In this document: positions 7,113 through 21,880 of the stretch, one piece after another | Position numbering within the stretch: position 1 is the stretch's first letter | Layout: every line of letters begins with the position of its first letter | Source of the DNA: a virus | DNA: 33,581 nt | Strand: one strand, 5' to 3' | IMG/VR virus record: IMGVR_UViG_3300021326_000150 | Notes under the pieces: generated by a model | Databases searched by the model: none | What the model was told of the DNA's origin: nothing | What the model saw: only the letters and a program-made list of their open reading frames with translations | Translations under genes and position numbers: made by a program

Positions 7113-8045
7113 TTATGCTCTGAAATTACCTTTGATTATTCTATTAGGTGCGTTCATTAACACACCGACGGAGGAAAGTATGAATAGCTTTGTATACATA
7201 GGTAATTCATCACGAATGTCCTTGCGCATGAATTCAATTAATGGATAGAAATCGTACATCTCACCGTCCGGGCCTAAAGGTGCAACGGTTGTTCCTGTAG
7301 TCCTGGAGTATAACAATTTCATTCCGGGGTTAATGTAGTCCATACCAATATAGGTTTTGTCACCCATCTCAGCACCACCGTCACAGACAGCAGTTCCAAG
7401 GATATCAATATTATCAACGCCATAATAGCTTTTGATTAATTCTACCGGTTCAACTTGTCTGTTGCTTGAGAATATGTCAGATTTTAAAGTTGTTAATGAT
7501 TTATAGCTTACGGCCATACTGTTTAAGTTAGCATAGCTTCCAGCTGATTCTTTGAATTTCTCTTGAGCTTTGAGGATGGTCATACCGGTATCGTCACCAG
7601 ATTCAAAGTCATAGGTTGCAACTTTGGATGAATTCATTATCATGTCAATAGCTGCCTTTTCAATACTTCGGCCGATAAGAATACCGACATCCTGAAGCAT
7701 ATCATTAACAGAGATTAAATTGGAATCGAGCATTTGTGCGGAAACGTTTAATACTCCACCGATAGTGTCAATGGAGATAGTTTCACTGATTGGTTTTCTT
7801 ACGTTTAATTCCTGAAGGGTTGCACCTGGAGCAATGTCTTTGGCCTCTCCAAGTACACCTGCCTGAATAGCTTCCTCGATATTAACTCTTTGAGACATGT
7901 AAGTGTAATACTGGCTGTTTTCTTCTATCTCTTGCTTTGGAAGTAATCTGGTGAATTTCATCCATTTGGCTGAAGTGTCAGCAACAATTTGAGCCATTAC
8001 TTCATTTTGTACTTTAGCATCATTTCCTTTTGTTAACATTAACAT
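7113..8045 (-). CDS. Major capsid protein paralog 2 (HK97-like fold)
   Basis: 310 aa. GEAKDIAPGATLQELNVRKPISETISIDTIGGVLNVS..LDS is an E-loop/P-domain-like pattern, then backbone helix D...IGRSIEKAAI. Lies downstream of a decoration gene. Confidence 0.8.
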   Translation of the reverse strand: MLMLTKGNDAKVQNEVMAQIVADTSAKWMKFTRLLPKQEIEENSQYYTYMSQRVNIEEAIQAGVLGEAKDIAPGATLQELNVRKPISETISIDTIGGVLNVSAQMLDSNLISVNDMLQDVGILIGRSIEKAAIDMIMNSSKVATYDFESGDDTGMTILKAQEKFKESAGSYANLNSMAVSYKSLTTLKSDIFSSNRQVEPVELIKSYYGVDNIDILGTAVCDGGAEMGDKTYIGMDYINPGMKLLYSRTTGTTVAPLGPDGEMYDFYPLIEFMRKDIRDELPMYTKLFILSSVGVLMNAPNRIIKGNFRA

Positions 8046-8052
8046 TCACCTC

Positions 8053-8991
8053 TTATGGCCTGCAAGTACCTTTTAAAGCAAGACCAGGTTTATTTAATAA
8101 TATACCTACTTTACTTTGTATAAATAACTTTGTATATTGAGGTAACTCATCGTAGATATCTTTACGCATGATTTCAATGATAGGATAGAAGTCTGCAATG
8201 TTTTCATCGCTTGTAATAGGTGCAACAGTAGTTCCAGAAGATTTGGAATACAATACTGTTAATGGTGCATTACGGAGATCAAAACCAATGTAGTCTTTAT
8301 CACCAATTAATGAACCGCCGTCAGCTTGGGTTGTTCCTAAAAGATCTATATTATCAATACCGTAGTATGCTTTAATATCTTCTACAGGTTGTACACGTTT
8401 GTTACTTGCGTAAGCTAATTGTTTAACATAGCTTAATGTCTTGTAAGACTCAGCCATTATTGTTAAATCTGCACCTGCTCCAGCATTACCTTTGAAAGCT
8501 TCTTGTGCTTTGATAACAAATTTACCGAAAGCATCCATAGTATCGTCAGTTTCACTGGTATTGTAAACAGGAACATTTGGAGAGCTTATTATGGTATCGT
8601 AAATGTTAAACTCAATACGATTAGCAATAACAGTTGCTACATCGCCTAATAAATCTTCAAATGAAACAATATCTGAATCAAAGACATCTTTATTAACATT
8701 AAGGACTCCACCAACAGTATCAATGGAGATAGTGTCTGTTACTGGTTTTCTGATGTTTAATTCTTGAAGGCTTGCGCCTGGAGCAATGTCTTTGGCCTCA
8801 CCAAGAAGACCTTTTTTAATAGCTTCATCAAGATTAATGTTTTGTCTAAAGTAAGTATAATAATCTGAGTTCTCTTTAATTTCTTGTTTAGGAAACAATC
8901 TAGCTAATTTCAATCTTTTTGCGGTTTCATCAGTAATAGTTTGAGCTATTACCTCGTTTTGAACTTTGGTATTATTTCCTTTTGTAATCAT
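8053..8991 (-). CDS. Major capsid protein paralog 1 (HK97-like fold)
   Basis: 312 aa, colinear with 7113..8045 over its full length. The two share a 23-bp identical DNA stretch at 7825-7847 and 8777-8799. Confidence 0.8.
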   Translation of the reverse strand: MITKGNNTKVQNEVIAQTITDETAKRLKLARLFPKQEIKENSDYYTYFRQNINLDEAIKKGLLGEAKDIAPGASLQELNIRKPVTDTISIDTVGGVLNVNKDVFDSDIVSFEDLLGDVATVIANRIEFNIYDTIISSPNVPVYNTSETDDTMDAFGKFVIKAQEAFKGNAGAGADLTIMAESYKTLSYVKQLAYASNKRVQPVEDIKAYYGIDNIDLLGTTQADGGSLIGDKDYIGFDLRNAPLTVLYSKSSGTTVAPITSDENIADFYPIIEIMRKDIYDELPQYTKLFIQSKVGILLNKPGLALKGTCRP

Positions 8992-9004
8992 TCATTATCA
9001 CCAA

Positions 9005-9487
9005 CTATTCGGTTATGTCGTATGGTCTGAATACTTCAATGTATTTGTAATCATCTGAATTAGCTACAGGGTGCATTGCAATATATTCGCCGTCGTTTGA
9101 TTTAATAGCTCCAGTACTGCTTAAAGCTATTCTATCATTAACGGCAATGTTAGATAAACCGCTTGCTAATTTTAATCTGAATAAATGGCCTAATACAAGG
9201 ATGGCAGTTTTTCTTTTACCGCCAGTCATGGTAACTGGATCGTTAACTGCAATACCTAATATGATTTCACCGTCAGCTGCAGTGTATTTTTTAACTGTAG
9301 GTTTTCCAATATCTGAGTTAGCTGATAAGGTTACAGCGTCATCGACTTTGATTTTATCGCCTGCATACTCATATCCAGGAGTTTCTCCTGTTGGAGTTGT
9401 TACAGTAGTTGCAGTAATTGTACCTTCATCTAACAAGAAAGTTGTAACTTCTTTTCTTTCTTCAAGTAAAACAATTGCATCTGGCAT
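9005..9487 (-). CDS. Capsid decoration/cement protein (DUF2190-like)
   Basis: 160 aa, beta-rich: IKVDDAVTL, ILGIAVND, LVLGHLFRL, AVNDRIAL..GAI. Immediately precedes the capsid genes. Confidence 0.7.
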   Translation of the reverse strand: MPDAIVLLEERKEVTTFLLDEGTITATTVTTPTGETPGYEYAGDKIKVDDAVTLSANSDIGKPTVKKYTAADGEIILGIAVNDPVTMTGGKRKTAILVLGHLFRLKLASGLSNIAVNDRIALSSTGAIKSNDGEYIAMHPVANSDDYKYIEVFRPYDITE

Positions 9488-9785: not shown

Positions 9786-11321
9786 TTAATTCATAAAATT
9801 AAAAAAGTCTTTTTCTAAAGGTAATTCAACATCATTGATGATTAAATCTCGTAAATTATTTAATTCATTTATCATAATATTTTTCTGGATGTCTAATTGG
9901 TAAATGCCTGAATTGTTAATCATTTCAGCATCTAATTCTTGAAAATTAGATAAATCCAATTTTGATTTATGATAATATTCATTATAGTAATATTTTTTAA
10001 TTTCATTTTGTTTTTCATCAGGGAAAATAGGAAATGGCAATTGTTTTAGATATGGAATTGCAATACTGCCCCCATTTCCACCAGTAGCGCAGATATCAAT
10101 TAATCCAATTTTTCTAAGATAATCTAAAAAACATTTAATAAAAATTGATTCTGATAAATTACTATCCTTATGAGTTAAAGTTATTCCATGGATATTTGTA
10201 ATTATATTATCATCATCAAAAATAATTAAAGACCTGCCTTTTTCAAATCCTTCTGCACCAAATATTATATCACCTTTATTTAAGGTTTTTAAATCATTTG
10301 GATTACCAATATATTCCTCTTCTAGAACAGTTCCATATATAGAAATATTTTTTGGTTTGATACATCTATAAAATCCTTTTTTTTGAACATCAGAATATAT
10401 TGAATCACCTATTGCAGAGAACTGAAGGTTTTGACCCCTACTAATCTCAAAATTCCAATCTTCAATGCCTTTAAAACCATGTTTATAATTAGTAATTAAA
10501 AACTCTTCATTTTTAAAATAGTCTGAGTATATAGAAGCATCTAATCTTTTTTTAGTATTTATTTCAGAAAATTTAGGAAAATTAAAATTAAAATTATCAT
10601 CTTTTTGATTATTTAAAATTTCCTCATGTATAACATCCATAATTTTATGATATTTATCCTGAATAGCTTTTTCACGATTAATTATAGCTTTAACTAATAA
10701 TGAAATATACTCAATAATTTTATTTCTGTTCTGATTAGGAAAAGGTATTTTTAAGTCTAACCATAATGTTTTCGCATGTTTTAATGTAGATCCTTTAGGT
10801 GTTAATAAGTATAATTGTTCTTTAAAGAAATCTGATTTCATCATTGCAAAAATATAATACTTTAAATCTTCCTCAAAAACTAATTTTACTAACCCTCCGG
10901 ACATAATATATTGATTTAAATCTTCATTAACATATACTACTTCGCCAACATTGGAATCTTTAACAATTAAAATATCTCCTTCAGTTAGGTTAAATTCTAC
11001 TTCTTTTTTTGCATAACTTTCAATATAATTTTCATAAGTTGTTGGAAAAATTGGTTGAGCTTCAGTATATGTATTAACACTAGGTAAAAAAGAATAACTT
11101 TGCACCGCTTTTGTTCTAATAAAATTAAATCCAGAATCAAAACTTAAATAATAGTCAGAACCAATATCATTTCCTATTATATAATCAATTAATAACTCTT
11201 TAACTAGCTTTATATTTTTATTTTTAATTGGCACAATATTATAGTTTGATGGAGTAAGCTTTTTATCATTACCTATTTCACTAAATCTAATTGTTTTAGG
11301 TGTCTTTGTATATTTCATCAT
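9786..11321 (-). CDS. Restriction-modification specificity (S) subunit with two target-recognition domains
   Basis: Duplicated architecture: L.EGDILIVKD..VG...YYIFAMMKS..GSTLKH...LKIPFP..Q and LNKGDIIFG..G...FIKCFL...G....LKQLPFPIFP..Q. Overlaps the upstream gene by TAATG. Confidence 0.8.
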   Translation of the reverse strand: MMKYTKTPKTIRFSEIGNDKKLTPSNYNIVPIKNKNIKLVKELLIDYIIGNDIGSDYYLSFDSGFNFIRTKAVQSYSFLPSVNTYTEAQPIFPTTYENYIESYAKKEVEFNLTEGDILIVKDSNVGEVVYVNEDLNQYIMSGGLVKLVFEEDLKYYIFAMMKSDFFKEQLYLLTPKGSTLKHAKTLWLDLKIPFPNQNRNKIIEYISLLVKAIINREKAIQDKYHKIMDVIHEEILNNQKDDNFNFNFPKFSEINTKKRLDASIYSDYFKNEEFLITNYKHGFKGIEDWNFEISRGQNLQFSAIGDSIYSDVQKKGFYRCIKPKNISIYGTVLEEEYIGNPNDLKTLNKGDIIFGAEGFEKGRSLIIFDDDNIITNIHGITLTHKDSNLSESIFIKCFLDYLRKIGLIDICATGGNGGSIAIPYLKQLPFPIFPDEKQNEIKKYYYNEYYHKSKLDLSNFQELDAEMINNSGIYQLDIQKNIMINELNNLRDLIINDVELPLEKDFFNFMN

Positions 11322-13423
11322 TAATCACCTAAAAACTTATGTTTTAATGTTTCTTCCTGAGTATTTACCCATTCTTTAAATTCTGTAATGATACTACTAA
11401 AGTCTTCAGCAAGAATTGCATCACCATTTTCATCAGTTACTACATCAAATGTTTCTTCATCAATTTTATATTTCTTTTTAAATGTTTTAATTGATTTAAC
11501 TGTTTTAACTTCATAACCAACGTTTTCTATTGTTTTTGCAAAAATTTCATAATCATTTTCTTTCAATTTATTTAATGTATCTTTATCTGGTTTATATCCT
11601 ATAATTAAAACTGTATTAACATTAGTATCAGCAAAAACATTTGTAGGTAGTTCAAATAATGCCACTATTCTAATATTGTCCATTAACCATTCTCTAGCTT
11701 TAACATCCCTATCTACGGATGCAATACTATTAGATAAAACGATTCCAAACCTACCATTCTCTTTCAATAATCTAACCGCATTTTCTAAGAATAAGATTCC
11801 CATATCCATGCTTTTACTTTTATCATTATCCCACAATTCATATAATTCAGCAATATCCCTATCTTTCCTATTTTTAGGTTTATATGCTCTGCCCTTACCA
11901 AAAGGAGGATTAGTTAAAACAACATCAAATTTCATTAATTCAGTTTTATCAACCCAATTATCCCAATTTCCATTTTGATGATATTTATGGTTTAATTCTA
12001 CAATATTTCCTTTAATATCAAATTTATGATTTAATGAACCTTTATTTGGAACATATTCAATCTTTGCATTTCCATCCCCATTAAGTAACATGTTTAATTG
12101 AGATAGCATAATCATTTGTTTGTCATTATCTAATCCATATAAGTTGGAATCATTTAACTTAGGGTTTGAATTAACGTAACTGACTGAGAGGAAATCACTA
12201 ATTCCAGTACATGGATCAATCAACCGTTCATTTCCTCTAGGGTTTACAATATTAACTAAAAAGTTAATTAATACTAATGGTGTTAAAAATTGTCCATTTT
12301 GTTCTTTAGCAAATTCATTAGAGAATTTATAGAAAACTAATTGATATAAATCAGTTTTATAAGATTTAATAAATGAATAATTTTGAAATGTTTCAACTAC
12401 TGAAATTACTGTTTGAATATGAGATTCATCTCTCCAATCAATATGGTCATTTTCTAAAATTTTAGTATACACTTCTTTTGCATTATCGAAGATATTAGTC
12501 ATTCTATTGATAAAGTTTTGTATGTTATCATCCATAAGAGAGTCATAATTCTTTTCTTCATCAAGAATATAAAAATTTAAAGGGGAATTATATTTCTCAT
12601 CATAAATCTTTAAAGCAAGAACTTCAATTATTATACGATAACCATCAGGTGAATTAAGACCAACTTTGTCTAAAGTAAATGTTACATTGTTTAAATCTTC
12701 ATTAATTTTATTAGATTTAATACCAGTAATTTTTTCTAAATCATCAACTGTTCTATTGCTTAAATCTACATTTACAAATTTTTTCTTATCTATGATATCT
12801 TTAAAAGATGGTAAGCTAGTATATGAATCAGGTAAGTGTAAAGATAACCTTTCTAATTCTGAATTTCCTTTACCATTTTTTGTATCATCATATCGAGTGT
12901 ATTTCTCATTATCTTTTTGAAAAATCCATAATTTCTCATGATCATAATATATCCCAACAACAAAATCTTTTTCGGATTCTTTCATTGCTGGTTTTAATTG
13001 TTGATTATAATAAGTTTCAAGTTTATTTCCTTTCTCATTTTTAAATTCAATTGCCACTATCAAATGTTTTCTTAACCAATCCAAATCATCTTGGGTTTTA
13101 TCAGTCCAAAATTTATTATAATGATTAATCCAATCTTTATCATCAAAAATAGCTGAATCCATTTTTAAAGGGGTTGATGATGGATTTCCTTTTGGAAAAA
13201 AAACTTCTGCACCTATATAATCTTTATTAAATAATCCTGAATTAATTATCGAATAAATAAATTGCCATTTATAATATTCTTCATTTGGAAGGGATTTTAC
13301 ATTTTTAATTGGGATATCTTTTTTCATTTTTCCATTAACTGGAACTAAACTATCTATGCTGCTTTTTTTCTCGTGTTCAGCATTGAATTTGTCTTTTGAC
13401 TCCTTAAATGATTTAGAACTCAT
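11321..13423 (-). CDS. Fused restriction endonuclease / N6-adenine methyltransferase (Type IIB/IIG-like, BcgI-A architecture)
   Basis: N-terminal PD-(D/E)xK-like MDSAIF...IVAIEFK. MTase motifs GQFLTP, IDPCTG, GLDND, VVLTNPPFG, LENAV.LL..GR.GIVL. Confidence 0.88.
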   Translation of the reverse strand: MSSKSFKESKDKFNAEHEKKSSIDSLVPVNGKMKKDIPIKNVKSLPNEEYYKWQFIYSIINSGLFNKDYIGAEVFFPKGNPSSTPLKMDSAIFDDKDWINHYNKFWTDKTQDDLDWLRKHLIVAIEFKNEKGNKLETYYNQQLKPAMKESEKDFVVGIYYDHEKLWIFQKDNEKYTRYDDTKNGKGNSELERLSLHLPDSYTSLPSFKDIIDKKKFVNVDLSNRTVDDLEKITGIKSNKINEDLNNVTFTLDKVGLNSPDGYRIIIEVLALKIYDEKYNSPLNFYILDEEKNYDSLMDDNIQNFINRMTNIFDNAKEVYTKILENDHIDWRDESHIQTVISVVETFQNYSFIKSYKTDLYQLVFYKFSNEFAKEQNGQFLTPLVLINFLVNIVNPRGNERLIDPCTGISDFLSVSYVNSNPKLNDSNLYGLDNDKQMIMLSQLNMLLNGDGNAKIEYVPNKGSLNHKFDIKGNIVELNHKYHQNGNWDNWVDKTELMKFDVVLTNPPFGKGRAYKPKNRKDRDIAELYELWDNDKSKSMDMGILFLENAVRLLKENGRFGIVLSNSIASVDRDVKAREWLMDNIRIVALFELPTNVFADTNVNTVLIIGYKPDKDTLNKLKENDYEIFAKTIENVGYEVKTVKSIKTFKKKYKIDEETFDVVTDENGDAILAEDFSSIITEFKEWVNTQEETLKHKFLGD

Positions 13424-15003: not shown

Positions 15004-15009
<6 letters not shown>
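14722..15009 (+). CDS. DUF2958-like small mobile-element protein
   Basis: PIVVKF...W.WYI......YGLVDG.EKELG.F.L.E..V pattern. GGAG RBS. Confidence 0.7.
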
Positions 15010-16176
<1,167 letters not shown>

Positions 16177-16180
16177 TATT

Positions 16181-17203
16181 TTATTCCTCCTCATGTGTCC
16201 ATGGTTCAATACTTATTCTTTCCCATTGAATGTGGCCTCCTGCTTCATAAATCATTATTGCAGGATAGAATGTATCAAATGTTATCTTATCTGAAATATC
16301 AGCTTCATATGTGAAATCATCTGTAGCTCCATGTGTTATTGTAGCTTTAACATAACCGTTATCATAATACAAATCAAAATAATACTTCTGCGAATCCAAT
16401 GCCAGCTGTCCTGATGAAACATTAACATCCCGTACTACATGGTCAGATGTGGAATATTTCAGTCCTTTCTTAGCAGGATAAGCACCCAGTTCCAGAATTT
16501 TTGTATCTCTGTAATGGCTTAATGATTTGGAATTGACTAAAGCTATTGCATCGCCCCATCCCTGGTTGCTGTCCTTTTTCTGATAGATAGCTACTTCCAT
16601 ATGAATTCCGCTTGTCCCATCAATACCGTTAGAGTATACCCCGGGTATTGCCATTACTACAGAAGCTGCTACAGTATCTTTTGCCAAATCATAAACCTCA
16701 CTATCATCTACCATATCAATATCAAATGTGGGTGATATGCTTGTTGGATACTTAACAATTTCATAAGCCCCTAAATTTCCATCCCATGCATAATCATCGA
16801 AATTTAAAAATGGAACGCATGTATAATTAATGTTAAAGGCTTCTTTTCTTCCAACTTTGCAGATGACAGTTCCTGTAGCATCTTTAACATATGGTACTGT
16901 AACGGCTGACTTTCCGTTAGAATCTGTTCTGACAACACTGTGAACTCCATCAACCCACCAGTCAATTGGAACTCCTGAATCTTCAAGTGTTACGCTGTAT
17001 TCAAATCCTTCCGGAGGAACTGTATCTGATTTTACAATACGTAATACGGGGATTCCAAACATCATCATTAACCGTTCTGCAAGTTCAAATATTGTGAGAG
17101 TATTGTCCCACCAGATGTTATATTCAGTCAGCTTATTTCTAAGCTTTGTTCTTGTATTTCCAAGCCTTGTGTTTTCCAAAATAACATTACTAGCTATGCT
17201 CAT
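16181..17203 (-). CDS. Putative virion fibre/receptor-binding protein with beta-rich C-terminus
   Basis: N-terminal RLGNTRTKLRNKL...TIFELAER shared with the next gene. Start placed at MSIASN (17203), avoiding a 92-nt overlap. Confidence 0.65.
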   Translation of the reverse strand: MSIASNVILENTRLGNTRTKLRNKLTEYNIWWDNTLTIFELAERLMMMFGIPVLRIVKSDTVPPEGFEYSVTLEDSGVPIDWWVDGVHSVVRTDSNGKSAVTVPYVKDATGTVICKVGRKEAFNINYTCVPFLNFDDYAWDGNLGAYEIVKYPTSISPTFDIDMVDDSEVYDLAKDTVAASVVMAIPGVYSNGIDGTSGIHMEVAIYQKKDSNQGWGDAIALVNSKSLSHYRDTKILELGAYPAKKGLKYSTSDHVVRDVNVSSGQLALDSQKYYFDLYYDNGYVKATITHGATDDFTYEADISDKITFDTFYPAIMIYEAGGHIQWERISIEPWTHEEE

Positions 17204-18079: not shown

Positions 18080-18934
18080 TCAGCTCCCGAGCAAATTCAA
18101 GTTTGCTGTTTGTGTGGATGTTATTGTTCCAATAGCTGTTTGGACATTTTCAATAGCTATAGCTACCGGTGCGTTTTTAATAGCGTTGGTTGTATCGGTT
18201 GTATCTAAAGTGCTTGCAAGATTAACAGGGCCGGTATCACCAGTATCTCCTTTATCACCTTTAGCGCCAGATGTACCGGTATCACCTTTAGGTCCGGCAG
18301 GGCCAGTATCACCAGTATCTCCTTTCAGACCACTCACCCCAGTATCTCCTTTTTCACCGGATGCACCAGTATCTCCTTTAGGTCCTTTCAAATTAAAATA
18401 TTGGTCAACTAATGCTTTACCATCACTTATACATGCAATATGACATATATTATTATCAGTTCTTGTGAGTACCCAGTCTCCAAGATTTACTTCTGTTGCC
18501 CATGTATTATTCTCCAATAAATCACTGACATAAAATCCTCCATATAATGAAGGTTGAGCCGGACAGCCTGTTGAAGATAAACTGCTGTTTCTGCCACTGA
18601 TGGACAGTAATATTTGTGCTCCGGCTTTACCTGCAGGACCTGTTTCACCAGTGTCTCCGTGAATACCTGTTGCTCCGGACATGTCTGTTATGAATGTGAA
18701 TTCGGATGTTCCTCTGAGATATAATTTAGCGTTATCGGGATCTTCAACATTAGATTGGATTGCAACAAAACTTCCATCAGGAACATTATTGAAATCAGCT
18801 TCCATTAATGCTATTGTTGAATATGTTTTAAAAATTGTGAATGGTGCGCCTGCAGGACCTGTTTCACCAGTAGCTCCTTGAGGTCCTGTTGCTCCTATAT
18901 CACCTCTTAAGTTTCCAACATTTCTCCAAGTCAT
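18080..18934 (-). CDS. Collagen-like fibre protein
   Basis: Three G-X-Y blocks separated by FTIFKTYST...DNAKLYLR and Cys-containing domains. Confidence 0.85.
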   Translation of the reverse strand: MTWRNVGNLRGDIGATGPQGATGETGPAGAPFTIFKTYSTIALMEADFNNVPDGSFVAIQSNVEDPDNAKLYLRGTSEFTFITDMSGATGIHGDTGETGPAGKAGAQILLSISGRNSSLSSTGCPAQPSLYGGFYVSDLLENNTWATEVNLGDWVLTRTDNNICHIACISDGKALVDQYFNLKGPKGDTGASGEKGDTGVSGLKGDTGDTGPAGPKGDTGTSGAKGDKGDTGDTGPVNLASTLDTTDTTNAIKNAPVAIAIENVQTAIGTITSTQTANLNLLGS

Positions 18935-18937
18935 TTA

Positions 18938-19576
18938 TTATTCCTCCCATACATAAAGTTCGCCGTTAATTAAGTAAGCATCTCCCACTTGAGGATTTGG
19001 AACGTTCTCTTCCAATTCTTCCAGACTATCATATGAGCCTTTTATTATTGTTGATATTCCGGCAGGGCCAGTATCACCAGTATCTCCTTTCTCTCCTTTA
19101 GCACCGCCACCTGCTAATTTAAAACAGTTAATGTAATTGTATTCATCAGAATCTTCCACAGGATGTAATGCCAAGTATTCACCTGATGAATCTTTAACGG
19201 CTCCGTTTTCACCCAGTTTGATTTTATCGGCCGGTGCAATATCTTTAACACCGCTGGCCAGTTTGAGTCTGTAAAGATGGCCTAACACTAACACACTGGC
19301 TTTTCTTTGGCCGTTATCCATTACTGTCGGGTCATTAACGATTATGCCTATTGGTATTTCATCATTATCGCCAGTGTATTTTTTAACCATTTCTTTTCCG
19401 ATTTCGGATTTGTCTGAAATGGTTACTGTATCTTCAGGATATAATTTGTCAGTGTAATCATAACCGATGCTTTGGCCTGTTTGTGTAACTACGTCTTTTG
19501 AGGTTACATCTCCATCATCAAGTAAAAATGTTGTGACTTCTTTTCTTTGTTCAAGTAAAACTATTTGGTCTTGCAT
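18938..19576 (-). CDS. Decoration-domain protein fused to a short collagen segment and a truncated IKGSYD domain
   Basis: N-terminal ~155 aa closely parallel 9005..9487 (IVLLE.RKEVTTFLLD.G; VLGHL.RLKLASG). Ends GDAYLINGELYVWEE. Confidence 0.85.
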   Translation of the reverse strand: MQDQIVLLEQRKEVTTFLLDDGDVTSKDVVTQTGQSIGYDYTDKLYPEDTVTISDKSEIGKEMVKKYTGDNDEIPIGIIVNDPTVMDNGQRKASVLVLGHLYRLKLASGVKDIAPADKIKLGENGAVKDSSGEYLALHPVEDSDEYNYINCFKLAGGGAKGEKGDTGDTGPAGISTIIKGSYDSLEELEENVPNPQVGDAYLINGELYVWEE

Positions 19577-20175
19577 TAAACACTCACCTCATATATGTGA
19601 TTACCTTTAACGTGGGGATTGCATTTGATATTCATTTCATGTTTTCTGGCTTCTGTGCAGAAATATAAATCTTCAGAAAGTACTGTATCATCGTCGTAGA
19701 TAACATATCTGAAATATGGATAGCTCATCTTTCTGAAGACATTAACATTAACGAGGCTGATTCCAAGTCCTCCTCCTTTAACGTCAATGGGATTGTTAAG
19801 GTTCCATAATGTTTTTCCATAGATCATGTTTTTGTCAGTGTAATCTTTTCCAAAATCATAGATGACGGTTTGATCTGTTTTTGTTCTTTTCTTGTAATAC
19901 CAGCCTAAAGCAATATCCGTTTCACACTTTAACAGATTGTTTACAGTTTGTCTAGGCACACTAACATCTGAATCTACCATTAACACATAGTCAAAGTCGT
20001 ATTTGATTGCTAGCTTTGCTATTTCGTTTCTTGCACGTGCGCAGTCATAGCCTTTAACATAATCAAAATATAGTAAATAATCGTTAGGATTTTTCATGCC
20101 GTAAATACTTTTAAAGCATTCCGGTTTGATGTTTTCGAATGTTGGAACGGCAATTAGGATTTTACCTTTCATCAT
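19576..20175 (-). CDS. GT-A fold (GT2-like) glycosyltransferase
   Basis: KILIAVPT, ARARNEIA...FDYVLMVDSD (DxD), GGGLGISLV, SEDLYFC, H. Start placed at MMKGK. Confidence 0.88.
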   Translation of the reverse strand: MMKGKILIAVPTFENIKPECFKSIYGMKNPNDYLLYFDYVKGYDCARARNEIAKLAIKYDFDYVLMVDSDVSVPRQTVNNLLKCETDIALGWYYKKRTKTDQTVIYDFGKDYTDKNMIYGKTLWNLNNPIDVKGGGLGISLVNVNVFRKMSYPYFRYVIYDDDTVLSEDLYFCTEARKHEMNIKCNPHVKGNHIYEVSV

Positions 20176-20443
20176 TGCCCTCCAGCTTTTCGATTCTCTC
20201 TTCCAGTTCATCCAAGTTTATCTTGTCTTGTTTTTCACATGTATATTCATAAATGTCAATTACTGCTACAATAACAATAGCTACTGTTAATGGTAACAGT
20301 CCTTCGATTAAAGCATACTTTGTTGCGTTGGTCATTATGATGTTGATAGCTATTGCTGTTAAAACTGCACTGGAGATTGTTTTGGTAAAGTTACAAATGA
20401 CTATTTTATTTTTTAGTTTGTTCATGATAACAATATCCTCCAA
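20162..20443 (-). CDS. Small two-TM membrane protein (holin-like)
   Basis: Two hydrophobic segments followed by a charged coiled tail. Confidence 0.6.
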   Translation of the reverse strand: MEDIVIMNKLKNKIVICNFTKTISSAVLTAIAINIIMTNATKYALIEGLLPLTVAIVIVAVIDIYEYTCEKQDKINLDELEERIEKLEGNDER

Positions 20444-21103: not shown

Positions 21104-21880
21104 TTATATAAAGTATACATTTTCGCCATCATCACAACCGTCCCATTCCATGTATAACTTATTGTCTTCCCAAACAAACCGTACATTATTAACAATAGCT
21201 ACATCCGGAAGCTCACAATAAGTAACACCGTCTGCATCTTTAACATAATTGGCCTGCGCCATAATATTGGATTCCGTTGGTACGATCATATTAACAACAT
21301 GAGTTATTTCATCCTGTTCAAAAGAACAGTCAGCAAGATCAATACAGTTCTGAGATTCTGGATACATTTCAATTTCAGACATCTGCCTGTATACTCTAAT
21401 GTATTCAGTGTCTTCATTTTCCGTTAGATTAACAATGGAAAGTAATCTTAAATCATGGCCTTCAACCGGATTGCACTCACCGTCACTGTCAATGTAGATT
21501 CTGGTATTCGGCAATATATCTGCAGGAGCAGGTCTTTTGAGTTTTAATCTGAAAACATCACCCAGTACCGCAACAGTAACAAGAGTATGGCCGGATGATT
21601 TAACCTGCACCTTACCTAACAGATAACCGAAGGCCAGTTCACCAGCCTGTGCTTTTCTAACAATTGTATGCTGCATTGTGGATGATTCATCAAGTGTTAC
21701 CATCTCACCTACTGCACATTGGTTTTCACATATCCACGCCGTATGCTCATCATTAACGTAGAACCTTTCGCCCTCATCAAGTAAACAGGCAATAACGTCC
21801 ATCTTTTCTTCATGTTCAAGTCCTGTTGGATATCCACGGCCATGTCCTATAGTACTGCCGTCATCATAGTCACTTATCAT
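21104..21880 (-). CDS. Third, divergent decoration-domain paralog with C-terminal extension
   Basis: MDVIACLLDEG, AVGEMVTL, VAVLGDVFRLKL, EYIRVYR align with the two other decoration proteins. Confidence 0.7.
   Translation of the reverse strand: MISDYDDGSTIGHGRGYPTGLEHEEKMDVIACLLDEGERFYVNDEHTAWICENQCAVGEMVTLDESSTMQHTIVRKAQAGELAFGYLLGKVQVKSSGHTLVTVAVLGDVFRLKLKRPAPADILPNTRIYIDSDGECNPVEGHDLRLLSIVNLTENEDTEYIRVYRQMSEIEMYPESQNCIDLADCSFEQDEITHVVNMIVPTESNIMAQANYVKDADGVTYCELPDVAIVNNVRFVWEDNKLYMEWDGCDDGENVYFI

What the first reader, a model, noticed from the sequence alone, without database searches (positions are those of the whole stretch)
18080..19576. A fibre domain split across two in-frame genes: fission, readthrough or strand complementation
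Seen: the intact domain occurs twice in 15004..16176 ([35 protein letters not shown] then collagen). Gene 18938..19576 stops mid-domain at GDAYLINGELYVWEE, and the next gene starts with the missing strand MTWRNVGNLRG then collagen. The DNA reads TGG GAG GAA TAA TAA ATG ACT TGG: same frame, two ochre stops, and a GGAGG RBS made from the W-E codons. The double stop plus RBS suggests a fixed fission rather than decay. Inference: the two proteins rebuild the domain in trans, non-covalently joining a capsid-anchored stub to a collagen extension.
Basis: partly seen in the sequence, partly recalled or inferred. Interest (0 to 1): 0.75.

Follow-up and report, generated by a model that had tools for sequence, protein, structure and literature searches.

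The report
Fibre knot domain split between genes
In a gut-methanogen (Methanobrevibacter) virus, a small knot domain that normally sits inside collagen-like fibres is cut in its last hairpin into two neighbouring genes; the cut is conserved across dozens of related viruses, so it most likely works as a plug-and-socket joint that links a capsid-anchored base to a fibre extension.

Summary
Gene A (18938..19576, minus strand) ends ...GDAYLINGELYVWEE. It is followed by TAA TAA, and gene B (18080..18934) starts MTWRNVGNLRG plus collagen. A profile of 61 copies of the domain tiles exactly across the two genes: A's last 39 residues fill positions 1-39 and B's first 11 fill positions 40-50.

The split is not an error, decay or readthrough:
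- 36 non-redundant junctions in Methanobrevibacter proviruses share it, and every one has a donor gene downstream.
- Spacers run 3-94 nt, all three frames occur, and each donor gene has its own ribosome-binding site.
- Many relatives carry the split twice in series (A-B-C).
- No unsplit A-B protein was found. The two "fused" proteins are chimeras with the distal fibre gene.
- In 200 of 202 phage records that hold the domain, it is contiguous.

The second TAA is incidental; relatives have GAA or AAA there. The paralog of A's base folds like capsid decoration proteins and the phi29 head-fibre base.

Best reading, at about 0.7: B's N-terminal strand completes A's half-domain in trans, as in donor-strand complementation. 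This is inferred from conservation, co-occurrence and paired changes, not shown physically. It is a new variant of a known kind.

The parts
19112..19576 (-). Gene A, residues 1-155: base domain, a paralog of the 160-aa protein next to the capsid genes
   Evidence: It is 55% identical to window 9005..9487. The AlphaFold2 model of that paralog (pLDDT 87.6) matches capsid decoration proteins and the phi29 gp8.5 head-fibre base. Foldseek gives E 2.7e-4 to 2e-3 at probability 1.0. VIA-align gives Z 7.0 for Borrelia phage BB1 (64 aligned, rmsd 2.4) and Z 6.5 for 6qyy (55 aligned, rmsd 2.8).
19061..19105 (-). Gene A, residues 158-172: short collagen-like stalk of five G-X-Y triplets ([15 protein letters not shown])
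   Evidence: Read directly from the translation. It is too short for a Pfam Collagen hit.
18941..19057 (-). Gene A, residues 174-212: acceptor half-domain (strand 1, helix, strand 2, strand 3), ending ...LYVWEE
   Evidence: It matches domain HMM positions 1-39 at E 1.2e-19. The read-through fold places strands at 178-182, 200-203 and 206-211 and a helix at 185-191, with pLDDT 64-81.
18943..18947 (-). Shine-Dalgarno-like GGAGG for gene B, made from the W-E-E codons of gene A, 8 nt before the ATG
   Evidence: TGGGAGGAATAA is identical in all six junctions of this class.
18935..18940 (-). A's TAA stop (18938..18940) plus a 3-nt spacer that happens to be a second TAA (18935..18937)
   Evidence: In relatives the spacer codon is GAA or AAA.
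18902..18934 (-). Gene B, residues 1-11 (MTWRNVGNLRG): donor strand, the missing strand 4 of the domain
   Evidence: It matches HMM positions 40-50. W1, [VA]4, G5, [IL]7, [KR]8 and G9 of the strand are invariant in 30 split copies, as in 31 intact copies. All full-length close B homologs start with it; the only exceptions are one internal-Met gene call and two N-terminal fragments.
18080..18901 (-). Gene B, residues 12-284: collagen, a divergent knot-like insert, collagen, a globular insert, a long collagen stretch, then the tip ...TQTANLNLLGS
   Evidence: Pfam Collagen scores 53.4 bits against a cut-off of 27.2, at residues 183-236. PHROG tail-fibre families match. The same tip ends the single-chain and three-gene forms in relatives.
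15949..16107 (-). Intact copy 1 of the domain in the distal fibre gene 15004..16209
   Evidence: HMM E 1.3e-25; coordinates.
15592..15750 (-). Intact copy 2 of the domain in the distal fibre gene
   Evidence: HMM E 2.7e-29. tblastn finds this domain contiguous in 200 of 202 phage records.
9005..9487 (-). Bare 160-aa paralog of A's base, directly upstream of two major capsid protein paralogs (8053..8991 and 7113..8045)
   Evidence: Phage_capsid_4 hit; vir323 annotation; fold.

Best explanation
**What it is.** A and B are two separately translated subunits of one trimeric, collagen-like fibre of a Methanobrevibacter provirus.

**The parts.**
- A has a base domain with the fold of capsid decoration proteins and head-fibre bases. 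It has a five-triplet collagen stalk and the first three quarters of a roughly 50-residue knot domain (strand 1, helix, strand 2, strand 3).
- The gene boundary falls at the tip of the strand 3-strand 4 hairpin.
- B starts with strand 4 (after likely Met removal, T-W-R-N-V-G-N-L) and runs straight into its own collagen helix.

**Proposed mechanism (inferred).** Each of the three strand-4 plugs of a B trimer docks next to strand 3 of one A chain. The pairing is a Trp-Trp and Tyr-Asn cross-strand hairpin. This completes the knot, joins B to A without a covalent bond, and sets the register of B's triple helix.

**Translation.** Tight coupling would deliver B's N-terminus next to the newly finished A. 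The stop, 3 nt and the ATG follow one another, and the ribosome-binding site lies inside A's last codons.

**In relatives.** The same joint is used twice, giving a chain A-B-C. The two joints differ at paired positions, which would keep the order of assembly and stop B from polymerising on itself.

**Shown:** the fission, its conservation, independent translation signals, and constraint on the donor strand.
**Inferred:** physical complementation, trimer stoichiometry and the capsid location.
For: - **Exact tiling of one domain across the two genes.** HMM positions 1-39 fall in A and 40-50 in B.
- **Recurrence.** There are 36 non-redundant split junctions in related proviruses. All have a donor ORF 3-94 nt downstream, and 35 of 36 show an SD-like motif 3-8 nt before the start. 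The split occurs twice in series in vir323 and in many MAG loci.
- **Constraint on the donor strand.** It is as conserved as strand 4 of intact copies, with six of nine positions invariant in 30 split and 31 intact copies.
- **No unsplit form.** 51 of the 120 best A clusters end W-[ER]-E. All 20 split A proteins in the species genomes stop within 1-3 residues of strand 3. All full-length close B clusters start MTW.., and none is fused to an A base. The only 'fused' proteins, P0121 and P0143, carry a domain of the distal-fibre clade: 96% and 84% identity to intact copies against at most 67% to split ones.
- **The intact state is the norm elsewhere.** The domain is contiguous in 200 of 202 phage records.
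- **One origin is possible.** Split copies form one side of a branch, with support 96/90 after the loop columns are removed. This fits one fission followed by spread of the junction.
- **Fold of the read-through.** It gives a regular strand 3-strand 4 hairpin at pLDDT 64-81.
- **Paired class-specific changes across the gene boundary.** Tyr35/Asn48 becomes Phe35/Ser48 in all 11 unique copies of one class. Trp37 becomes Phe or Tyr, together with Glu47 to Val, in another. Positions 35 and 48 are cross-strand neighbours in the model's strand register.
- **Location of the base.** The fold of its paralog matches capsid decoration proteins and head-fibre bases.
- **Fold of the knot.** Its best structural matches include the collagen XV and XVIII trimerization domains (Z 5.0-5.4).
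Against: - No direct test of association was possible. Only single-chain folding was available, and the read-through fold is expected to look like the homologous intact domain.
- The paired changes are single evolutionary events in single clades, so they are weak as covariation.
- Structural matches for the knot are of middling strength (Z below 8), and the whole-protein model was poor (mean pLDDT 39).
- The capsid location rests on a paralog's fold at Z 5-7 and low TM-scores. No virion data exist.
- The split and intact copies sit in different genes, so the tree may partly reflect gene lineage.
- Only the best 120 of 633 A homologs could be inspected.
Confidence: 0.7

Rival explanations
1. 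Recombination scar without a joint. The gene boundary sits in the domain only because module shuffling between collagen-rich fibre genes left it there. On this reading the half-domain on A and the strand on B are tolerated leftovers that do not bind each other, and B attaches elsewhere or acts alone.
For: This fibre locus is clearly shuffled. Relatives show single-chain, two-gene and three-gene forms and chimeras with the distal fibre. Binding has not been demonstrated.
Against: A leftover strand should decay, but it is invariant at six of nine positions in 30 copies. It always sits at the extreme N-terminus, directly after a half-domain (36 of 36 junctions). Both halves persist through about 45% divergence of the A base.
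Confidence: 0.14
2. Recoding. Stop-codon readthrough or ribosomal bypass makes a single A-B chain with an intact domain, and the separate products are minor.
For: In this window and its five closest junction relatives, A and B are in the same frame and 3 nt apart. The longer B-C spacers hold a hairpin next to the stop, which loosely recalls bypass elements.
Against: Frames are 0/1/2 in 20/9/7 junctions. Six of the eight same-frame junctions of the second A-B class, and five of the six same-frame B-C junctions, hold two to five in-frame stops. This window itself has two. Nearly every donor gene has its own ATG and an SD-like motif at normal spacing. Candidate take-off and landing codons are not conserved when the spacers are read by eye.
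Confidence: 0.04
3. Recent pseudogenisation or an assembly error particular to this genome.
For: None beyond the bare fact of a stop inside a domain.
Against: The identical protein occurs on three contigs in 19 member sequences. 51 clusters, 36 junctions in independent MAGs and a published virus genome share the split.
Confidence: 0.01
4. Same joint, different place. The A base sits on the neck or tail rather than on the capsid shell, so the A-B fibre is a tail appendage used for adsorption.
For: vir323 annotates the 160-aa paralog as 'preneck appendage protein'. A phi29 gp12 fragment is among the fold matches at Z 5.4. A lies in a cluster with tail-fibre-like genes. No tail tube or tape-measure gene was recognised in the virus.
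Against: Nine of the ten best VIA-align matches and all of the top Foldseek matches are capsid decoration, cement or head-fibre-base proteins. The bare paralog lies directly upstream of the two major capsid protein genes.
Confidence: 0.25

Closest known systems
Donor-strand complementation in chaperone-usher pili (Fim and Pap pilins)
   Same: One subunit carries an incomplete beta fold that lacks its last strand. The N-terminal strand of the next subunit fills it. Subunits can be chained in series, and specific pairs could set their order.
   Different: The fold is different: a small strand-helix-strand-strand-strand knot rather than an Ig-like pilin. The setting is a trimeric collagen fibre. 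No chaperone or usher is evident. The system is a virus of an archaeon. Intact single-chain copies of the same domain lie in a neighbouring gene, so the fission is traceable. This comparison rests on general knowledge and was not tested by sequence or fold here.
phi29 gp8.5 head fibre and capsid decoration (cement) proteins of tailed phages and of Haloferax virus HFTV1
   Same: The base-domain fold of A's paralog matches them: Foldseek E 2.7e-4 to 2e-3, VIA-align Z 5-7. A trimeric fibre rises from a decoration-type base.
   Different: The phi29 head fibre is a single polypeptide with a helical stalk. Here the stalk is collagen-like and continues on a second (in relatives a third) polypeptide through a split domain.
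The same knot domain, intact, in tail fibres of many bacterial phages (rV5-like coliphages, Gordonia phage minor tail proteins, Erwinia jumbo phages, a C. difficile BppU-family protein, crAss-like phages)
   Same: It is homologous by sequence at 37-56% identity over all 53 residues and is flanked by collagen. PHROG families 3904, 819, 35286 and 5073 cover it.
   Different: In those phages the domain is contiguous (200 of 202 records). It has no Pfam or NCBIfam model and no solved homolog by sequence.
Trimerization domains of multiplexin collagens XV and XVIII
   Same: They are about 50 residues, built of strands plus one helix, and lie next to a collagen helix. They are among the best structural matches: Z 5.4 (54 aligned, rmsd 3.9) and Z 5.0 (51 aligned, rmsd 4.6), covering nearly the whole target. 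According to the review PMC7852327 they start in-register folding of the triple helix.
   Different: There is no sequence similarity. The Z values lie in the range where unrelated small folds also score. They are of animal origin, lie at the C-terminal end of the collagen, and are not split.
Multi-protein phage fibres with non-covalent joints (T4 gp34-35-36-37; BppU-BppL of lactococcal phages)
   Same: Fibre segments are encoded by neighbouring genes and joined without covalent bonds, which allows distal modules to be exchanged.
   Different: In those fibres the joints are formed between whole, distinct domains, as far as I know. They are not formed by the two halves of one domain that is intact in paralogs.

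Membership tests
Collagen triple helix repeat (PF01391) | Runs of G-X-Y triplets that score above Pfam's gathering threshold | tested here: met
   B scores 53.4 bits against 27.2, and the distal fibre scores 91.3 bits. A has only five triplets and gives no hit.
Phage fibre knot domain (unnamed; covered by PHROGs 3904, 819, 35286 and 5073) | The full-length ~50-residue motif IKGSY..EL..HP.G..GDAYLV.G.LYVW...W.NVG.IKG on one chain | tested here: not met
   A carries positions 1-39 only and B carries positions 40-50 only. Together they meet the feature. The neighbouring fibre gene meets it twice.
Capsid decoration / head-fibre base fold (phi29 gp8.5 N base, BB1, HFTV1, FCWL1, Pam3 cement proteins) | Fold similarity of the base domain to solved decoration proteins | tested here: met
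   The model of the 160-aa paralog has pLDDT 87.6. The top 15 Foldseek rows are all capsid decoration or head-fibre proteins, best E 2.7e-4. VIA-align gives Z 7.0-5.0. TM-scores are low (about 0.3), so the strength is moderate.
Capsid decoration / head-fibre base fold | Physical location on capsid three-fold or quasi-three-fold sites | not testable with these tools
   Only gene context is available: the bare paralog sits directly upstream of two HK97-fold capsid genes.
Chaperone-usher donor-strand complementation | An Ig-like pilin fold lacking its C-terminal strand, a periplasmic chaperone and an outer-membrane usher | not tested
   No pilin fold comparison and no search for a chaperone or usher was run. 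The secondary structure of the read-through model (four strands and a helix in about 50 residues) and the archaeal-virus setting make membership unlikely. This is an analogy of mechanism only.
Programmed stop-codon readthrough or recoding | The downstream ORF is in a fixed frame relative to the upstream one across relatives, with a single leaky stop | tested here: not met
   Frames are 0/1/2 in 20/9/7 junctions. Most same-frame spacers longer than 3 nt hold two to five in-frame stops. Donor genes have their own SD-like motif and ATG.
Pseudogene or assembly artefact | The break is confined to one assembly, with loss of constraint downstream | tested here: not met
   51 protein clusters and 36 junctions share the break. 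The donor strand is invariant at six of nine positions.
Split intein (protein trans-splicing) | Intein halves of tens of residues flanking the break | tested here: not met
   Only one to three residues follow strand 3 in A, and only Met plus one residue precede the conserved Trp in B. There is no room for intein halves.

The most novel reading that the evidence does not exclude
The split knot is a natural, programmable plug-and-socket system. Each joint class (A-B and B-C) has its own matched plug and socket: Tyr/Asn against Phe/Ser, and Trp/Glu against Phe-or-Tyr/Val. Trimeric fibre segments would therefore assemble on the capsid in a fixed order without self-polymerising, and the socket trimer would also template the register of the next collagen helix. 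If so, this is a viral counterpart of pilus donor-strand complementation that arose by a traceable gene fission. It would also be a ready-made set of orthogonal non-covalent protein connectors.
Probability: 0.35. Interest if true: 0.8.

Novelty: new variant of a known kind. Interest (0 to 1): 0.66.

Why it matters
Fibres built from several proteins are common in viruses, but how the pieces recognise each other is rarely readable from sequence. Here the joint can be read directly. One small domain, intact in the neighbouring gene and in about 200 phage records, is cut at a hairpin tip, and both halves stay under constraint for as long as the virus family can be traced.

This gives a concrete and cheap hypothesis to test, by co-expressing two short termini. 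It would explain how head or tail fibres of methanogen viruses are extended and swapped in modules. It is also a possible example of a domain fission becoming an assembly interface. If the joint classes prove orthogonal, they would be useful as small trimeric protein connectors. The host genus is the dominant methanogen of rumen and human gut, where virus-host recognition is almost unstudied.

Tried and rejected
- **Sequence families.** Pfam, NCBIfam and PDB sequence searches gave nothing for the knot domain or the base domain. A profile of 24 base-domain relatives also found nothing. A phmmer hit of the read-through domain to the beta-propeller protein HCF136 (E 0.55) only reflects a 'GG.TW' hairpin motif and is not significant.
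- **First fold.** The whole A plus read-through model was poor outside the knot (mean pLDDT 39). I therefore used the second job on the 160-aa paralog.
- **Other plugs and sockets.** The candidates were the N-terminus [14 protein letters not shown] of the fibre gene and the C-termini of the 258-aa and 374-aa proteins. The domain HMM gives no significant match there (best score -1.8), so this is neither supported nor excluded.
- **Ribosomal bypass.** I considered bypass across the hairpin-containing B-C spacers and rejected it. Reading the spacers by eye showed no conserved take-off and landing codon pair, and every donor gene has its own start signals.
- **'Fused' proteins.** P0121 and P0143 looked at first like unsplit ancestors. 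Their domain belongs to the distal-fibre clade, so they are chimeras.
- **Tools and literature.** Literature searches found no description of this split or of the domain. The paper that deposited vir323 is not in the library.
Full report
**1. The observation**

On the minus strand, gene A (18938..19576, 212 aa) ends ...GSYDSLEELEENVPNPQVGDAYLINGELYVWEE. The DNA then reads TGG GAG GAA TAA TAA ATG ACT TGG. Gene B (18080..18934, 284 aa) begins MTWRNVGNLRG and runs straight into G-X-Y triplets.

The fibre gene 15004..16209 holds two uninterrupted copies of the same roughly 50-residue unit...[46 protein letters not shown]..., each flanked by collagen.

It matches A's last 39 residues to profile positions 1-39 (E 1e-19) and B's first 11 residues to positions 40-50. 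It matches the two fibre copies end to end (E 1e-25 and 3e-29).

**2. Where it comes from**

tblastn places the region in a provirus of Methanobacteriales. The closest named relative is Caudoviricetes sp. vir323 (BK063679, 34 kb, circular, host Methanobacteriales), at 54% identity for A. The nearest held genome, G001, carries four related proviruses. A scan of species-representative genomes returned 72 loci, nearly all from Methanobrevibacter MAGs of rumen and gut.

**3. The split is fixed, old and repeated**

- *Protein database, A side.* Among the 120 best 90%-identity clusters homologous to A, 51 end exactly at W-[ER]-E, two residues after strand 3. The others are single-chain forms in which the base is followed by collagen and the tip ...NLNLLGS without any knot domain.
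- *Species genomes.* There are 20 distinct A-type proteins that end in the half-domain, 13 single-chain forms without the domain, 39 bare forms of about 160 aa, 2 with another C-terminal domain, and none with an intact domain.
- *Junctions.* Scanning all loci in six frames gave 36 non-redundant split junctions. Every one is followed within 3-94 nt by an ORF that starts M-[TAS]-W-x-x-[VA]-G-x-[IL]-[KR]-G plus collagen. The six other pattern matches, reported as 'no donor' or 'other', are spurious hits in unrelated frames.
- *Serial use.* In vir323 and in many MAG loci the split occurs twice in series. A ends ...LFVWHND and B starts MAWxSVGxIKG. B ends ...LYV[FY]Q and C starts M[AS]WVNVGxIKG. 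C carries the same ...LLGS tip.
- *Protein database, B side.* All full-length close B clusters start MTW[RK]x[VI]GNLRG. The exceptions are one internal-Met gene call and two N-terminal fragments. None is fused to an A base, although the length window would have admitted a 496-aa fusion.
- *The 'fused' proteins.* The two proteins that join an A base to an intact domain, P0121 and P0143, carry a domain that is 96% and 84% identical to distal-fibre copies. It is at most 67% identical to any split copy, and it is followed by the distal fibre's tip domain. They are chimeras between A and the distal fibre gene, not unsplit ancestors.
- *Other phages.* In 50,697 phage records the domain occurs in 202, and in 200 of them one alignment covers at least 80% of it. 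The hosts include E. coli, Gordonia, Erwinia, Clostridioides and crAss-like phages. The intact state is the rule, and the split is a derived feature of this virus family.
- *Tree.* With the loop columns removed, a tree of the 61 copies puts all 30 split copies on one side of a branch, with support 96/90. One fission followed by spread of the whole junction is therefore possible. The caveat is that split and intact copies sit in different genes, so gene lineage and split state are confounded.

**4. Not readthrough, not decay**

The junctions fall into three classes.

| Class | Junctions | Spacer | Ribosome-binding motif | Other |
|---|---|---|---|---|
| A-B 'EE' (this window) | 6 | 3 nt | GGAGG inside the W-E-E codons, 8 nt before ATG | same frame |
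| A-B 'HND' | 16 | 15-35 nt | GAGGTG | frames mixed |
| B-C 'Q' | 14 | 8-94 nt | AGGTGA | longer spacers hold a GC hairpin and a run of 7-9 T |

The vir323 B-C spacer folds at -22.1 kcal/mol with z = -4.6.

The downstream frame relative to the upstream gene is 0, 1 or 2 in 20, 9 and 7 junctions. Six of the eight same-frame HND spacers and five of the six same-frame Q spacers hold two to five in-frame stops. Stop codons are TAA, TAG and TGA. The donor genes are therefore started independently.

The window's second TAA is just the 3-nt spacer. The five relatives of this class have GAA or AAA there. The 'double stop' is not evidence for anything, although it makes readthrough even less likely in this genome.

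**5. The two halves stay under the constraints of one domain**

In the donor strand, six of nine positions (W1, V/A4, G5, I/L7, K/R8, G9) are invariant in 30 split copies. The same holds in 31 intact copies. The second residue is T, A, S or another small residue in nearly all junctions. The initiator Met is therefore probably removed, which I infer from the general rule for Met aminopeptidase. The mature plug would then begin one residue before the conserved Trp, as strand 4 does in intact copies.

The AlphaFold2 model of the read-through (both TAA codons read as Gly for the fold only) is poor overall, at pLDDT 39. The knot is the one confident part, at pLDDT 64-81. It has strand 1 at 178-182, a helix at 185-191, strand 2 at 200-203, strand 3 at 206-211 and strand 4 at 216-222. 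The gene boundary thus lies in the turn of the last hairpin.

In that strand register, A's Trp210 faces B's Trp3 and A's Tyr208 faces B's Asn5. The column table shows class-specific changes on both sides of the boundary.
- The HND class has Phe at both Tyr positions of the socket (columns 28 and 35) and Ser instead of Asn at plug column 48, in 11 of 11 unique copies.
- The B-C class has Phe or Tyr instead of Trp at column 37 and Val instead of Glu at column 47, in 12-13 of 13 unique copies.
- The EE class changes columns 48, 52 and 53 of the plug.

Each of these is a single event in a single clade, so this is suggestive rather than statistical covariation. It is what one expects of matched, mutually exclusive pairs. 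Within one virus the A-B pair and the B-C pair differ. That difference would stop B, which has both a plug and a socket, from polymerising on itself, and would stop C from skipping B.

**6. What the parts are**

*The base.* The base of A (residues 1-155) is 55% identical to the 160-aa protein at 9005..9487. That protein lies directly upstream of two major capsid protein paralogs and is annotated in vir323 as 'preneck appendage protein' followed by two HK97-fold head proteins. The family is narrow, with 59 representatives at 50% identity, and no sequence family matches it.

Its AlphaFold2 model is confident (pLDDT 87.6). Foldseek's top 15 rows are all capsid decoration, cement or head-fibre proteins:
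- Haloferax virus HFTV1, E 2.7e-4
- phi29 gp8.5 head-fibre N base, E 2e-3
- Borrelia phage BB1, FCWL1, Pam3 and T1

VIA-align gives Z 7.0 for BB1 (64 aligned, rmsd 2.4) and Z 6.5 for the phi29 gp8.5 base (55 aligned, rmsd 2.8), with nine of the ten best rows of that kind. TM-scores are low, at about 0.3. I take the fold class as supported and the capsid location as likely, at about 0.7, but not shown.

*The knot.* It has no sequence relative in the PDB. The best structural matches of the knot part of the model are:
- the N-terminus of Geobacillus virus E2 ORF18 (Z 6.9, 57 aligned, rmsd 6.2)
- the trimerization domains of collagens XVIII and XV (Z 5.4 and 5.0, covering nearly the whole 53-57-residue targets)
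- N-terminal domains of several phage tailspikes (Z 3.3-4.5)

These values are in the range where small folds match by chance. Even so, a collagen-adjacent trimerizing knot is a sensible reading. Multiplexin trimerization domains start in-register triple-helix folding (review PMC7852327).

*B.* It continues with collagen, a divergent knot-like insert, collagen, a globular insert, a long collagen stretch (Pfam Collagen, 53.4 bits) and the tip shared by all architectures.

**7. Mechanism proposed**

*Shown:* two cistrons, each with its own start signals; a conserved break at a hairpin tip; and conserved halves.

*Inferred:* A trimerises on its base and short collagen stalk and presents three open sockets. 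The three N-terminal plugs of B each add strand 4 next to strand 3, pairing Trp with Trp and Tyr with Asn. This closes the knot and fixes the register of B's first collagen segment. In this window, the arrangement of stop, 3 nt and ATG, with the ribosome-binding site inside A's last codons, would couple synthesis of B to that of A. In relatives a second joint adds C.

The likely benefits are all inferences:
- exchange of distal modules by recombination at a conserved junction, since the family shows one-, two- and three-gene forms and chimeras
- control of how many bases carry extensions
- shorter collagen folding units, each with its own nucleus

**8. Comparison with what is known, and novelty**

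The closest analogy of mechanism is donor-strand complementation of chaperone-usher pili. This is not a member of that system, because the fold, the setting and the accessory proteins differ. The closest relatives by descent are the intact knot domains of phage tail fibres. The closest relative of the base is the phi29-type head fibre or decoration protein.

Multi-protein fibres with non-covalent joints are well known, for example the T4 long tail fibre and BppU-BppL. To my knowledge, their joints are not the two halves of a domain that is intact in paralogs. Literature searches found no description of this split.

I rate it a new variant of a known kind. The fission is solid. The complementation is a well-supported inference that can be tested with two short constructs.

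Noticed in passing
L010:9521-9614 (vir323); also the B-C spacers of L004, L005, L029-L036, L041 and L042: The spacer between the second and third fibre genes holds a conserved GC-rich hairpin followed by 7-9 T, then AGGTGA and the ATG. In vir323 it folds at -22.1 kcal/mol, z -4.6. It looks like a terminator or attenuator inside the fibre operon and could lower the dose of the distal subunit. Two loci (L038, L039) lack it.
   Followed up: partly
window 16174-16183, and 15004-16209: The distal fibre gene probably starts at ATG 16176 ([17 protein letters not shown]...), 4 nt after the stop of the 374-aa gene. Its first residues resemble a donor strand (W..IG.V.G plus collagen). The domain HMM does not score it (-1.8 bits), and no half-domain precedes it, so a third joint is neither supported nor excluded.
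   Followed up: partly
window 18677-18844 (B residues 31-86): B holds an insert between two collagen runs (FTIFKTYSTIALMEADFNNVPDGSFVAIQSN...LYLRGTSEFTFITDMSG). Its strand and helix pattern looks like a very divergent intact copy of the knot. The HMM does not detect it.
   Followed up: no
proteins P0121 (384 aa) and P0143 (457 aa), from metagenome contigs: These are chimeric proteins. An A-type base is joined to the intact knot and tip domain (Phage_tail_C) of the distal fibre gene, as if recombination between fibre genes had removed everything in between.
   Followed up: partly
window 7113-9487 and 21104-21880: There are two full-length major capsid protein paralogs in tandem. There are also three paralogs of the decoration-like base: a bare 160-aa form, A with its fibre, and a divergent 258-aa form at about 27% identity. 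One database protein (P0164, 474 aa) reads as base plus capsid protein in a single chain, perhaps through a frameshift or a gene-call artefact.
   Followed up: no
window 19576-20211: A glycosyltransferase-like gene (PHROG 1574; weak Anp1 match below threshold) ends in TAATG, which overlaps A's start codon. The arrangement is conserved in vir323 and the G001 loci. It might glycosylate the Thr-rich collagen triplets.
   Followed up: no
window 9786-13423: A 700-aa and a 511-aa gene pair of low GC content (about 26%) sits between the fibre cluster and the capsid genes. It looks like a restriction-modification cassette inserted in the provirus. vir323 has a DNA methyltransferase at the same place. 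I ran no family search on it.
   Followed up: no
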